IMG/VR virus record: IMGVR_UViG_2562617057_000004
Coordinates: 1 to 10,981 of that record
Origin: a virus
Taxonomy: Duplodnaviria > Heunggongvirae > Uroviricota > Caudoviricetes
Reading direction: 5' to 3' (one strand)
DNA length: 10,981 bases
The translations under genes were made by a program, and so were the position numbers. Position 1 is the first letter of the stretch. Each line of letters starts with the position of its first letter. The notes beneath the pieces were generated by a model, which searched no databases, was not told the DNA's origin, and saw only the letters and a program-made list of their open reading frames with translations. This document shows, piece by piece, positions 1 through 1,015 of the stretch.

Positions 1-1015
1 TGTCAGTTATCATCTTCGGTTACGGTTATCGGCAGAACGCCCTGCCGCTGACAAGAGCTTATTTGCCTGACCAATCTACTCCACATGATAGATAACTATC
101 ATTTATGATTTAATTTGCATAACGTTTTGAATTTAAAAAATAAATTGCACTGCAAGTAACGTTAAAAATCGCAAATTAACTACACCATTAACTACACCGT
201 TCCACGAACAATATCGAACAACCGCAAACAAAGATCAACACACTTTAACTGTTACCATTTTCCGGTTATCCGCTATGAAGCTGGTGGGTGAGTTTTTCAA
301 TTTCCACAGTCTGTGGAAATTAAACGAATACAGCGAGCCAGAACAAGGTGACTGATATCGTCCGAAATCCGGACGAAGGGCGCATCAACTGTAACGGAAA
401 TCGTTATGGTTGCTGGTGGGCAGCGTCACCATCATGGTGATGATGCAGTGAATGTAAGGATTACTTAGGTTAGGGGCGTAACTCATTGTCATTTTTTGAG
501 CAGACCGGGAATCTCCGGTTTGGTTACTCTGTAACCAAGTCAATTTTATTTACTCTGTTGTGAGGGACTATAAGTTCTGCGCAAATTTCCCCGGTTTCCT
601 CAAATTGAGTTTCTCGAAAATATCAGCGGGTTAGCGATTAAGCTGGCGAGTAATTAAACTGCGAAAATTTCGTAGTTTGTGACTATCTGAAAGATAGTCG
701 GTTGTTCCGGCCTCAGCCATTGGCGGTCTCCGAAAATATCAACGGGTTAGGCCATCGTGCAAATTTGCACTCTGCCAGCCAACGCAATTTTGCGTTATCA
801 GTCCTCAGATTTGAGGGATGTAGCCAGCTTTTCCCCCAATAGGGGGATTATCCAGTTACCGACGGTTTAACCGTCTGTGCCAGCACAACGAAAGAATTTG
901 CGGGTAGCTTTAAACTACTTACAACATCCAATCTTACAGGCCGTGCCTTTCTAACTTTTTGCAATGTAATAAGTCAGGTAGCGCTATGCGTTCCACCGTG
1001 TACACCGCGTTCCGT

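What the first reader, a model, noticed from the sequence alone, without database searches (positions are those of the whole stretch)
100..950. About 1 kb of palindrome-rich non-coding DNA where a large terminase gene would sit in lambda
No credible ORF, but at least seven distinct perfect inverted repeats (301-319, 426-440, 520-538, 681-699, 757-770, 833-846, 862-876), a tandem 12-bp repeat ATTAACTACACC x2 (175-198) and a 19-bp direct repeat CGAAAATATCA(G/A)CGGGTTAG (616-634, 732-750). It could hold small RNAs, a cluster of protein-binding sites, the island boundary/att region, or decayed remains of deleted packaging genes.
Basis: seen in the sequence. Interest (0 to 1): 0.45.

Follow-up and report, generated by a model that had tools for sequence, protein, structure and literature searches.

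The report
Non-coding tail of a phage satellite
The palindrome-rich kilobase is the gene-free end of an E. coli phage satellite: its first 200 bases are the integrase's attachment-site arm, and the rest is a conserved, undescribed array of short hairpins, IHF-type boxes and Chi sites, not a dead terminase gene.

Summary
Window 100-950 holds 11 perfect inverted repeats against 1.6 expected (0 of 1000 shuffles), plus both direct repeats. The window is a cos-type E. coli phage satellite (PICI) inserted 106 bp upstream of clpS.

The region is not cos, which lies at about 1518-1701 and resembles phage 21 cos. It is not the origin, whose iterons lie at 4896-5130. It holds no detectable terminase remnant.

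Bases 107-291 are the attR arm. The tandem ATTAACTACACC repeat recurs on both arms of attP in relatives with the same integrase, so it is most likely an arm-type integrase site.

The 19-bp direct repeat is the core of a 44-nt unit: a 5-bp hairpin whose stem covaries, 8 nt, then a box whose invariant bases match the IHF consensus WATCAR-N4-TTA. Units sit on one strand (49 of 50) and follow the satellite's last gene (phrog_1561), often overlapping its stop codon. They occur in 359 of 5,426 complete E. coli genomes and are never annotated there.

These tails are also rich in Chi: 70 octamers in 38 kb against about 1.2 expected.

The function of the hairpin/box array is inferred, not shown. My best reading is a DNA-level architectural and protective end module. 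It is a new variant of known kinds and of moderate interest.

The parts
1..106 (.). Chromosomal DNA upstream of clpS (yljB/clpS intergenic); the island starts after about 106
   Evidence: Positions 1-106 match 5,425 of 5,426 complete E. coli genomes at 98-99%, annotated yljB; the match stops at 106 in genomes without the island. clpS ends just before window base 1.
85..102 (.). att core, palindromic ATGATAGATAACTATCAT
   Evidence: The same 18-mer, with one difference, is found at the integrase-side junction of the complete island in L004 and at the circular junction of the excised relative L002.
107..291 (.). attR arm (one arm of attP)
   Evidence: This block is shared at 82-91% only with islands that carry the same integrase family (L002, L004, L005, L006). 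It is replaced in L003, whose integrase is 23% identical.
175..198 (-). Tandem 12-mer GGTGTAGTTAAT x2: putative arm-type integrase sites
   Evidence: The same tandem pair lies on both sides of the core, in direct orientation, in L002 and L004; the other copy is about 25 bp upstream of the int start codon. It occurs nowhere else in the window. It is found next to the island end in many IMG/VR relatives.
203..232 (-). Three TTGTTCG/TTGTTTG repeats with 10-bp phasing: second class of att-arm sites (integrase, or AlpA/excisionase)
   Evidence: This is the only cluster in the window. TGTTCG clusters occur on both arms in L002 and L004.
280..287 (+). Chi (GCTGGTGG)
   Evidence: Exact octamer. The homologous context ATCCG..AAGCTGGTGGATGAT recurs in 12 loci with varied flanks.
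299..321 (.). Palindrome with 11-bp arms, AATTTCCACAG T CTGTGGAAATT, at the inner edge of the att arm
   Evidence: Relatives have an AAAACCCC..GGGTTTT hairpin at the same place.
358..376 (.). Palindrome TCGTCCG AAATC CGGACGA
376..445 (+). Conserved block with Chi (412-419) and palindrome 426-440 (TCACCAT C ATGGTGA)
   Evidence: The block is shared with 14-15 IMG/VR relatives; Chi; palindrome.
520..538 (.). Palindrome TTGGTTAC TCT GTAACCAA, preceded by ACCGG..CCGGT (504-519)
   Evidence: Conserved in L005 and L026.
593..636 (+).
   Evidence: Covariance model R1 scores 56.5 bits, E = 4e-14. Strict IHF-consensus match at 621-633.
681..699 (.). Palindrome GACTATCT GAA AGATAGTC
   Evidence: L005 carries the same arms with the loop inverted.
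709..752 (+). Canonical unit 2: hairpin CAGCC-ATT-GGCgG, 8 nt, box AATATCAACGGGTTAG (direct repeat, copy 2), 116 bp from unit 1
   Evidence: R1 scores 61.6 bits, E = 1.5e-15. Strict IHF-consensus match at 737-749. The 116-bp spacing recurs in L060, L081 and L085.
757..875 (.). Run of five further palindromes: GTGCAAATTTGCAC 757-770, AACGCAATTTTGCGTT 781-796, CCTCAGATTTGAGG 804-817, TCCCCCAATAGGGGGA 832-847, GACGGTTTAACCGTC 861-875. Several are followed by degenerate box remnants.
   Evidence: The block is shared at 89-98% with L004, L006, L059 and L081.
889..908 (+). Degenerate third box CGAAAGAATTTGCGGGTAGC
   Evidence: 76% identical to the reference repeat.
982..1041 (-). 20-codon relic of a phage KilA-N gene (NHESVVFTERGVHGGT); it contains the hairpin AAAACCAC..GTGGTTTT at 1017-1038
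   Evidence: 90% DNA identity to kilA-N genes of HK620, Stx phages and others. The coordinates are relative to the query, which started at window 60. tblastn E = 3e-10.
1040..1059 (+). Degenerate box CCTGAATATCATGAATCTAC overlapping the stop codon of the last gene
   Evidence: Read from the sequence. In relatives a canonical box overlaps the stop codon of this gene.
1055..1354 (-). Last gene of the island, a phrog_1561 protein (94-99 aa), always followed by the tail
   Evidence: phrog_1561 match at E = 1.5e-50. 977 relatives, all unnamed. The exact 23-nt box occurs in 28 IMG/VR stretches, 26 of them next to this gene.

Best explanation
Window 107-1054 is the gene-free tail of a cos-type phage satellite: a Gram-negative PICI with a P4-like integrase and primase and lambda-like E, D and Nu3 capsid genes. 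The tail lies between the last gene and the chromosome junction upstream of clpS. In the excised circle it lies between that gene and attP-int. I read it as a DNA-level cis-acting end module with three layers.

(1) 85-291 is attR, made of the core plus one attP arm. The tandem GGTGTAGTTAAT pair and the 10-bp-phased TTGTTCG repeats are the arm-type sites for the integrase and/or the AlpA-type excision factor. These build the recombination complex. On the other arm the same sites sit on the int promoter region.

(2) Chi sites (280, 412) are oriented so that RecBCD entering at the cosB-side end, about 1.2 kb away, meets them correctly. They would switch RecBCD from degradation to RecA loading. 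That would protect cos-cut or rolling-circle DNA and promote the multimers that cos packaging needs.

(3) 299-1054 is an array of short palindromes. Its conserved core is a 44-nt unit: a 5-bp stem with a 3-nt A/T loop, 8 nt, then an IHF-type box. There are two canonical copies 116 bp (11 helical turns) apart, plus decayed copies. IHF bound to the boxes would bend the tail in phase. Palindrome plus box marks the 3' end of the single long operon and buffers attP/int (in the circle) or clpS (when integrated) from it. Because the unit is conserved, it also serves as a joint for recombination between satellites.

Shown: the anatomy, the conservation, the covariation, the linkage to the last gene, and the exclusion of cos, ori and coding sequence.

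Inferred: who binds these sites (integrase, IHF, RecBCD) and what the array does.
For: Placement:
- Junction at 106.
- Genes.
- An excised 10,790-bp circular relative.

att arm:
- Same core and same repeats on both arms in L002 and L004.
- The arm block travels with the integrase type. The integrase is 98% and 94% identical in L002 and L004, which share it, and 23% identical in L003, which lacks it.

Not cos:
- Lambda-like cosQ/cosN plus three AACCGGACAT repeats lie at 1518-1701 on the minus strand.
- This stretch matches the cos regions of phage 21, PhiR12 and Gifsy-1.
- An exact lambda cosN sits at the same relative place in L004.
- This is the cos-rpp layout described in PMC9026076.

Not ori:
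- About 12 GGTAGACA iterons lie at 4896-5130, directly 3' of the primase gene, as described for PICIs in PMC6092414.

Not coding.

Unit:
- 49 of 50 box matches are on one strand.
- 27 of 31 unique units have a 5-bp stem with at least 4 Watson-Crick pairs at a fixed 7-8-nt gap.
- 96% of cells are paired, all 5 pairs change on both sides, and 0 of 500 shuffles reach the covariation score.
- The invariant columns are A-T-C-A and T-T-A, with W before them and free bases between, which is exactly the IHF consensus.
- There are only 3 strict consensus matches in the 11-kb window, 2 of them here.
- Model R1 finds strong hits only in island tails across 149 kb of loci.
- The 23-mer is almost exclusive to phrog_1561 neighbours in IMG/VR.
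- The block is in 359 of 5,426 E. coli genomes.

Chi:
- 70 octamers in 37.9 kb of 39 unique tails, against about 1.2 expected, in 24 different flanking contexts.
- The adjacent genes have 1 per 2.1 kb.

DNA level:
- Imperfect hairpins show no G.T versus A.C bias (13 vs 15; 6 vs 5).

Family trait:
- Palindromes with stem >=7 occur at 3.9 per kb in tails and 0.6 per kb in the neighbouring genes.

Joints:
- Ends of homology blocks lie about twice as often within 25 nt of a box as random positions do.
Against: - No binding data exist for any of the proposed proteins.
- The IHF reading rests on a consensus match. The A-tract abuts the core rather than lying a helical turn away as in lambda H', and a nearly invariant G before TTA is not part of the IHF consensus.
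- A dsDNA-binding protein gives no reason for a covarying 5-bp palindrome at a fixed 8-nt distance. Covariation usually points to a single-stranded fold.
- 5-bp stems are too weak for cruciform extrusion and weak as terminators.
- Only two units in the window are canonical. The other palindromes share no flanking motif.
- Chi orientation in relatives is only 42:28 in favour of the 'active' sense, and it follows the local G/C skew.
- Counts over relatives are not independent, because blocks are shared.
- The unit set used for the covariation count was chosen from box-anchored units with 3-nt loops.
- No strict IHF consensus was found inside the att arm itself.
Confidence: 0.45

Rival explanations
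1. The array has no function of its own. The tail is stuffer DNA that keeps the satellite at a packageable length (about 10.7-11.7 kb). It was built from recombination scars and stacked fossil 3' ends of the last gene. Template switching at quasi-palindromes during replication turns imperfect inverted repeats into perfect ones, which mimics covariation.
For: - The tail is strongly mosaic.
- It contains a KilA-N gene relic.
- 704-723 resembles the coding 3' end at 1069-1088, at 80% over 20 nt.
- The first box overlaps the stop codon of the gene.
- One palindrome occurs with its loop inverted in L005.
- There is no strand bias in wobble pairs.
- Related elements assemble as contigs of 10.7-11.7 kb.
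- Block ends cluster near boxes and Chi.
Against: - At one homologous position, between conserved flanks, the whole 5-bp stem is replaced (CCTCA, CCCCC, CCTGC, CAGCC, TCGCC) while staying paired and at a fixed distance from the box. Arm-to-arm copying does not produce that.
- The invariant box positions coincide with a known protein consensus.
- The strand is fixed in 49 of 50 cases.
- Chi octamers stay intact in 24 different contexts.
- Stuffer DNA would not keep a 23-mer identical across 28 IMG/VR contigs.
Confidence: 0.2
2. The units act in RNA. On the strand antisense to the operon, each hairpin followed by TTT(T/C) is a weak terminator. A tandem set would stop transcription that enters the island's 3' end from attP or the chromosome. 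On the sense strand, the hairpins would be 3'-UTR barriers that stabilise the operon mRNA. A small RNA is also possible.
For: - Stems covary.
- In canonical units the hairpin is followed by TTTC/TTTT on the plus strand.
- Two terminator-like sites were found on the plus strand at 266-291 and 517-541.
- Both strands fold far better than shuffles, with z = -7.9 for plus and -5.3 for minus.
- The position is at the 3' end of a unidirectional operon.
- REP elements, which protect the 3' ends of mRNAs, are a precedent (established knowledge).
Against: - There is no Rfam match.
- 5-bp stems with 3-4 U are poor intrinsic terminators.
- Most other palindromes lack a U-tract on either side (sequence).
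- There is no G.U versus A.C asymmetry.
- The only promoter-like site is at 80-109.
- The C/G ratio of the sense transcript is about 1, so there is no clear Rho-loading site.
- An RNA role does not explain box positions that match IHF.
Confidence: 0.15
3. Hairpin plus conserved 3' flank is a recognition site in single-stranded DNA for a specific enzyme or for the phrog_1561 protein. It would act like nick or priming signals: an HUH-type origin or oriT, a G4- or PAS-type single-strand initiation site used with the island's own SSB and primase, or a packaging accessory site.
For: - The geometry (variable stem, fixed spacer, conserved single-strand motif, single orientation) is that of HUH-endonuclease and ssi substrates (established knowledge).
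- The units are tightly linked to one small basic protein of unknown fold.
- The island encodes SSB and a D5/P4-type primase.
Against: - There is no HUH or relaxase gene in the island.
- The replication origin is elsewhere.
- phrog_1561 gave no structural match, with a model pLDDT of 69.
- The units are not needed at cos.
- Expression of the other EcCICFT073 genes after ori had no effect on lambda (PMC6739421).
Confidence: 0.12
4. The region is the decayed remnant of a large terminase or other packaging genes, or is itself cos or the replication origin.
For: It follows a Nu1-like remnant, where gene A sits in lambda.
Against: - tblastn with TerL, TerS, Rpp/DUF1441, portal and HNH proteins gave all E > 1.
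- Six-frame Pfam and PHROG scans were empty.
- L006 has an intact TerL and still has the tail after phrog_1561.
- cos and ori are mapped elsewhere.
Confidence: 0.02

Closest known systems
attP/attR arms of tyrosine-integrase elements (lambda, P4, KplE1)
   Same: A core duplicated at both junctions. Direct repeats on both arms that travel with the integrase type. One repeat set lies over the int promoter region, as in P4 and KplE1, where the integrase autoregulates (established knowledge; PMC2951348 for KplE1).
   Different: This covers only 85-291. No strict IHF consensus was found inside the arm. Binding is untested.
RIP/RIB (BIME-1) elements of E. coli: REP palindromes flanking an IHF site at the 3' ends of transcription units
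   Same: Short palindromes combined with an IHF-consensus box, in non-coding DNA at the end of a transcription unit, with function still debated.
   Different: The palindromes are 13 nt rather than about 35, and lack the REP sequence or GTAG tag. All units lie in one orientation rather than as inverted pairs. They are confined to satellite tails next to one gene rather than dispersed in hundreds of chromosomal copies.
EcCICFT073-type Gram-negative PICIs (Fillol-Salom 2018, 2019; Feiss review 2022)
   Same: Unidirectional operon, P4-type integrase, AlpA, primase followed by an iteron origin, and the cos-rpp layout.
   Different: This island has lost all but 24 codons of its rpp/terS gene. It carries lambda E-, D- and Nu3-like capsid genes and a phage-21-like cos with three R-like repeats. 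In the passages of those papers that I searched by term (not read in full), the tail array and its Chi sites are not mentioned.
Chi sites acting with cos in phage lambda (Stahl, Kobayashi)
   Same: The exact octamer lies within about 1.2 kb of a cos end, in the orientation recognised by RecBCD entering from that end.
   Different: Lambda itself lacks Chi and uses Gam. Here Chi is clustered in a non-coding tail of a satellite. Activity is untested and the orientation bias is weak.
nut sites (boxA, spacer, boxB) and HUH/ssi substrates
   Same: A conserved linear motif at a fixed distance from a hairpin whose stem covaries.
   Different: The motif is not boxA, the loops are not conserved, and there is no N-like or HUH gene.

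Membership tests
attP/attR of a tyrosine-integrase mobile element | Identical core sequence at both junctions and at the circular junction | tested here: met
   ATGATA(G/A)ATAACTATCAT is found at window 85-102, at both ends of the island in L004 and in the circular relative L002. The other junction of this island lies outside the window.
attP/attR of a tyrosine-integrase mobile element | Arm-type direct repeats on both arms that go with the integrase type | tested here: met
   The GGTGTAGTTAAT x2 and TGTTCG clusters lie on both arms in L002 and L004, whose integrases are 98% and 94% identical. They are absent in L003, whose integrase is 23% identical.
attP/attR of a tyrosine-integrase mobile element | Integrase, excisionase and IHF actually bind the arm | not testable with these tools
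   This needs EMSA or footprinting. There is no strict IHF consensus in 107-291.
lambda-type cos site | cosQ and cosN sequence with adjacent R repeats upstream of a terS/rpp gene | tested here: not met
   There is no cosN within 3 mismatches in 100-950. The cos site is at 1518-1701 on the minus strand.
PICI replication origin | [quoted passage not shown] | tested here: not met
   That structure lies at 4896-5130, not in the region.
Terminase (or other packaging gene) pseudogene | Translated similarity to TerL, TerS, portal or related families | tested here: not met
   Only a 20-codon KilA-N relic is present, at 982-1041.
IHF-binding site | Match to WATCAANNNNTTR with an A/T-rich 5' flank | tested here: met
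   TATCAGCGGGTTA at 621 and TATCAACGGGTTA at 737. Across 15 diverse units the invariant columns are ATCA and TTA.
IHF-binding site | IHF binds and bends the DNA | not testable with these tools
   This needs EMSA or ChIP.
REP/BIME (RIP) elements | REP consensus palindromes (about 35 bp, GTAG-tagged) in inverted pairs, dispersed around the chromosome | tested here: not met
   The stems are 13 nt with unrelated sequences and a single orientation. Strong model hits occur only in island tails.
Intrinsic terminator | G+C-rich stem followed by a run of at least 5 T | tested here: inconclusive
   Canonical units have a 5-bp stem and T3-4 on the plus strand. The scan found 2 plus-strand and 1 minus-strand sites in 100-950, which is not above shuffles.
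Described small RNA family (Rfam) | Covariance-model match | tested here: not met
   There is no match in 1-1100 at E <= 1. C4 and isrK matches lie at 7631-8294.
Chi recombination hotspot | Exact GCTGGTGG | tested here: met
   Positions 280 and 412 on the plus strand. Enrichment in relatives is shown. Activity is not testable here.

The most novel reading that the evidence does not exclude
The tail is a dedicated, previously undescribed cis-acting 'end module' of Gram-negative cos satellites. It would consist of structure-conserved hairpins coupled to IHF boxes, plus a Chi cluster, working with the last gene (phrog_1561). It would shield cos-cut or rolling-circle satellite DNA from RecBCD and drive RecA/RecBCD-dependent multimer formation. 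That would explain how an 11-kb element without Gam or Red supplies packageable concatemers. The conserved unit would at the same time act as the joint at which integrase/att modules and packaging modules are swapped between satellites.
Probability: 0.2. Interest if true: 0.7.

Novelty: new variant of a known kind. Interest (0 to 1): 0.45.

Why it matters
PICIs of the EcCICFT073 lineage are a model for phage piracy. Their int, alpA, pri-ori, cos and rpp functions are mapped, but about 7-9% of each element, the tail, has no assigned role.

This work shows three things about the tail:
- It is conserved in organisation across satellites with quite different packaging modules (Rpp-type, capsid-forming, and lambda E/D-type).
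- It carries a covarying hairpin joined to an IHF-type box.
- It is about 8 times richer in Chi than the E. coli average.

Together these give concrete, cheap experiments on how small cos satellites survive RecBCD, form multimers, insulate attP/int and exchange modules. The work also corrects a tempting misreading of the region as a dead terminase gene, and places att, cos and ori for this island. The unit is a useful marker for satellite ends: it is present in 359 of 5,426 complete E. coli genomes and is never annotated.

Tried and rejected
- **cos in the region.** No lambda cosN was found there. The one-mismatch cosN at 5742-5753 lies in the primase ITGGD motif and is a coding coincidence.
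- **Origin or P4 crr.** TGTTCG clusters occur only in the att arm, and the real iterons are at 4896-5130.
- **Terminase or other pseudogenes.** Rejected.
- **Phage DNA similarity.** Only the 60-bp KilA-N relic matched.
- **Rfam.** No match.
- **Promoter inside the box.** An extended -10 (TGATATTTT) on the sense strand was considered and rejected, because the -11 A is not conserved among units.
- **Rho-loading zone.** The C/G ratio of the sense RNA is 1.09 here and has a median of 0.94 in relatives.
- **Strand-specific RNA from wobble pairs.** No bias was found.
- **LexA, CRP, DnaA, sigma-54, integron attC, CRISPR-repeat and boxA/boxB readings of the motifs.** These were checked by eye against remembered consensus sequences and none fits. 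This rests on my own knowledge, not on a tool.
- **Function of phrog_1561.** No Pfam family, a narrow family, a three-helix model with pLDDT 69 and no PDB fold match, and essentially absent from cultured phages.
- **Genome-contig scan.** It returned one locus only.
- **Chi orientation as proof of function.** The bias is only 60:40 and is confounded with G/C skew.
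Full report
**1. Observation**

A count of perfect inverted repeats (stem >=6, loop <=6) gives 11 in 100-950. Dinucleotide-preserving shuffles give 1.57 +/- 1.30, and none of 1000 reaches 11. With stems >=7 there are 8 against 0.38. A typical 850-bp window elsewhere in the 11 kb has one. The region has no ORF with any family match, and RefSeq annotates nothing there in the near-identical strain VL40.

**2. Where we are**

- Bases 1-106 match 5,425 of 5,426 complete E. coli genomes and stop matching at 106. clpS ends just left of base 1. So the window is an island inserted 106 bp upstream of clpS.
- All its genes are on the minus strand:
  - integrase, 9743-10981
  - AlpA-like, 9124-9420
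  - DUF4222 protein, 6892-7179
  - D5/P4-type primase, 5141-6895
  - SSB, 4174-4596
  - lambda E-like capsid, 2498-3553
  - D-like decoration protein, 2151-2486
  - Nu3-like scaffold, 1725-2138
  - a 24-codon TerS/Rpp N-terminus, 1368-1439
  - a 99-aa phrog_1561 protein, 1055-1354
- C4 and isrK-type RNAs lie at 7631-8294.
- This is the layout of Gram-negative PICIs (PMC6092414).
- A 10,790-bp 'plasmid' record (L002) is an excised circular relative.

**3. What the region is not**

- *cos.* The cos site lies at 1518-1701 on the minus strand. It has a lambda-like cosQ, a variant cosN (GGGCGGGAGCGG) and three AACCGGACAT repeats, just upstream of the TerS/Rpp remnant. It matches the cos regions of phage 21, PhiR12 and Gifsy-1. 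L004 has an exact lambda cosN at the same relative place. This is the published cos-rpp arrangement (PMC9026076, PMC6739421).
- *Origin.* About a dozen GGTAGACA iterons at 4896-5130, directly 3' of the primase, fit the published PICI origin (PMC6092414).
- *Terminase.* Translated searches with TerL, TerS, Rpp/DUF1441, portal and HNH proteins of relatives found nothing below E = 1. Six-frame Pfam and PHROG scans were empty.
- *Gene relics.* The single relic is 20 codons of a phage KilA-N gene at 982-1041. The coordinates are relative to a query that started at window 60.

**4. The att arm (85-291)**

- The palindromic core ATGATAGATAACTATCAT (85-102) recurs at the integrase-side junction of L004 and at the circular junction of L002.
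- The tandem 12-mer (175-198) and the TGTTCG repeats (203-232) occur on both sides of the core in those elements, in direct orientation. One copy lies about 25 bp before the int start codon.
- The 107-291 block is shared only by islands with the same integrase (98% and 94% identity). It is replaced in L003, whose integrase is unrelated.
- The tandem repeat is therefore best read as an arm-type recombination site. Binding is inferred.

**5. The rest is modular and mosaic**

- Bases 407-1100 recur at 99.6% in islands at the tRNA-Pro/yejM site (L003).
- Other relatives share only blocks.
- The tail follows phrog_1561 whatever the packaging module is: Rpp-type in L004, a full HK97-like capsid/terminase set in L006, and a prohead protease/capsid fusion in L001 and L002.
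- Palindrome richness is a family trait. Stems >=7 occur at 3.9 per kb in 38 unique tails and at 0.6 per kb in the adjacent genes.

**6. The unit**

- The 19-20-bp direct repeat is widespread downstream of phrog_1561, always on the same strand (49 of 50) and often with 116-bp spacing.
- In all of IMG/VR the exact 23-mer occurs in 28 stretches, 26 of them next to that gene.
- The block is present in 359 of 5,426 complete E. coli genomes and is unannotated in all rows listed.
- Each box is preceded, at a fixed gap of 7-8 nt, by a 5-bp stem with a 3-4-nt A/T loop. This holds for 27 of 31 unique units.
- At homologous positions between conserved flanks the stem is CCTCA, CCCCC, CCTGC, CAGCC or TCGCC.
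- On 15 units, 96% of cells pair, all five pairs change on both sides, and no shuffle or slid register approaches this. A caveat is that these units were picked from box-anchored copies with 3-nt loops.
- A covariance model scores 61.6 and 56.5 bits at 709-752 and 593-636. Across 149 kb of loci it finds strong hits only in island tails.
- In many relatives the first box overlaps the stop codon of phrog_1561. In the window that first box is degenerate (1040-1059).

**7. Reading the box**

The invariant columns are ATCA and TTA, with W before them and variable bases between. That is the IHF consensus WATCAANNNNTTR, which I cite from established knowledge. The strict pattern occurs three times in the window, twice here. 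Two canonical boxes 116 bp apart would put two IHF bends on the same face of the helix. This is an inference from a consensus, not a demonstrated interaction.

**8. Chi**

- GCTGGTGG occurs at 280 and 412, and 11 times in the whole window.
- In 39 unique tails (37.9 kb) there are 70 octamers against about 1.2 expected, in 24 different flanking contexts. The neighbouring genes have one per 2.1 kb.
- The two copies here face the cosB-side end about 1.2 kb away.
- Across relatives the orientation bias is only 42:28 and follows local skew, so orientation is suggestive only.

**9. RNA or DNA?**

- Both strands fold far better than shuffles, with z = -7.9 for plus and -5.3 for minus.
- Imperfect hairpins show no G.T versus A.C bias.
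- There is no Rfam match.
- Terminator-like sites are not above chance.
- The sense transcript is not C-rich.
- Nothing singles out one RNA strand, so a DNA-level role or a neutral origin remains open.

**10. The linked gene**

phrog_1561 is a narrow, unnamed family. It is nearly absent from cultured phages. It is predicted as three helices with a basic tail (pLDDT 69), without a fold match in the PDB.

**11. Model**

Shown:
- The tail consists of the attR arm, Chi sites and an array of palindromes whose conserved core is the hairpin-plus-box unit.
- The array is linked to the last gene.
- The tail is distinct from cos, from ori and from coding DNA.

Inferred:
- Integrase, AlpA and IHF assemble on the arm.
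- IHF on the phased boxes folds the tail.
- Chi tames RecBCD entering at cos and promotes multimers.
- The unit marks and buffers the end of the single operon towards attP/int (in the circle) or clpS (when integrated), and serves as a recombination joint. Block ends are about twice as frequent near boxes as random positions.

I give this composite model 0.45. The sub-claims are:
- att arm, about 0.85
- IHF box, about 0.55-0.6
- functional Chi, about 0.5

The rivals are:
- neutral scars or stuffer DNA with template-switch palindromes, 0.2
- RNA-level terminators or stabilisers, 0.15
- a single-strand recognition site for a specific protein, 0.12
- a pseudogene, cos or ori, 0.02 or less

**12. 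Comparison and novelty**

The arm is an ordinary attP arm. The array most resembles RIP/BIME-1 elements, which are palindromes plus an IHF site at the ends of operons. It fails their defining features and is satellite-specific. In the passages of the PICI papers that my term searches returned, and in my full-text searches, I found no description of the array or of the Chi cluster. I therefore file the region as a new variant of known kinds, of moderate interest.

Noticed in passing
window 1518-1701 (minus strand): This is the island's cos site. It has a lambda-like cosQ (GGGTCCTTTCCGG) and a variant cosN (GGGCGGGAGCGG, against lambda GGGCGGCGACCT). Three AACCGGACAT repeats, one of them inverted, look like R3/R2/R1. 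It matches the cos regions of phage 21, PhiR12 and Gifsy-1, which points to the likely helper type.
   Followed up: partly
window 1368-1439 (minus strand): Only the first 24 codons (MATQTEVARHLSLTDRQLRRLQKL) of a TerS/Rpp-like HTH gene remain. VL40 and L002 have a full 162-aa DUF1441 gene here. This lineage, which carries the lambda E/D/Nu3-like genes, has therefore lost its packaging-redirection gene but kept cos.
   Followed up: partly
window 4896-5130: Replication origin: about 12 GGTAGACA(G) iterons in both orientations around A/T-rich spacers, directly 3' of the primase gene.
   Followed up: yes
window 7631-8294 (minus strand): There are two C4-type antisense RNAs (75 and 74 bits), an a1/b1 target-like site and two isrK-like RNAs. 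This is a P1/P7/P4-style RNA immunity region inside a PICI-like element. The 415-aa and 167-aa ORFs listed over it are probably spurious.
   Followed up: no
whole window: There are 11 Chi octamers in 11 kb, where about 0.3 is expected at random and about 2.4 at the E. coli average. 8 of the 11 face the nearer cos end.
   Followed up: partly
L002 (NZ_CP148328.1, pZ1323HEC0475-3): A 10,790-bp record deposited as a plasmid is an excised, circular satellite of this family. It shows attP intact between the tail and int. Several assemblies also have contigs of 10.7-11.7 kb that carry the phrog_1561 gene.
   Followed up: partly
window 3787-3826: A perfect 15-bp-arm palindrome (AATCATAACTGGATG TT CATCCAGTTATGATT) overlaps a second palindrome (ATGATTATAATCAT). 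Both lie in the A/T-rich gap between the SSB and capsid modules, so this may be an operator or promoter region.
   Followed up: no
window 1-110 and clpS: The island is co-oriented with clpS-clpA and separated from clpS by only 106 bp of native DNA. Read-through from the induced island could therefore reach clpS. A promoter-like site (TCCACA-18-TATGAT, 80-109, plus strand) is created across the junction.
   Followed up: no
window 5742-5753 (minus strand): GGGCGGCGACCC, one mismatch from lambda cosN, lies inside the primase gene. It encodes the conserved ITGGDP motif, so it is probably a coding coincidence.
   Followed up: yes
L001 (strain VL40), locus 17303-21136: In the only genome with a 99.9% match to window 1-1100, the island is degraded. 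Its primase is interrupted by IS110-like and IS4-like elements, and the integrase side is replaced up to fiu.
   Followed up: no
window 175-252, minus frame: Translation of the att-arm repeats (NGVVNGVVN) weakly matches phrog_21128 (E = 7e-4). This suggests that similar arm repeats have been annotated as ORFs in phage records.
   Followed up: no
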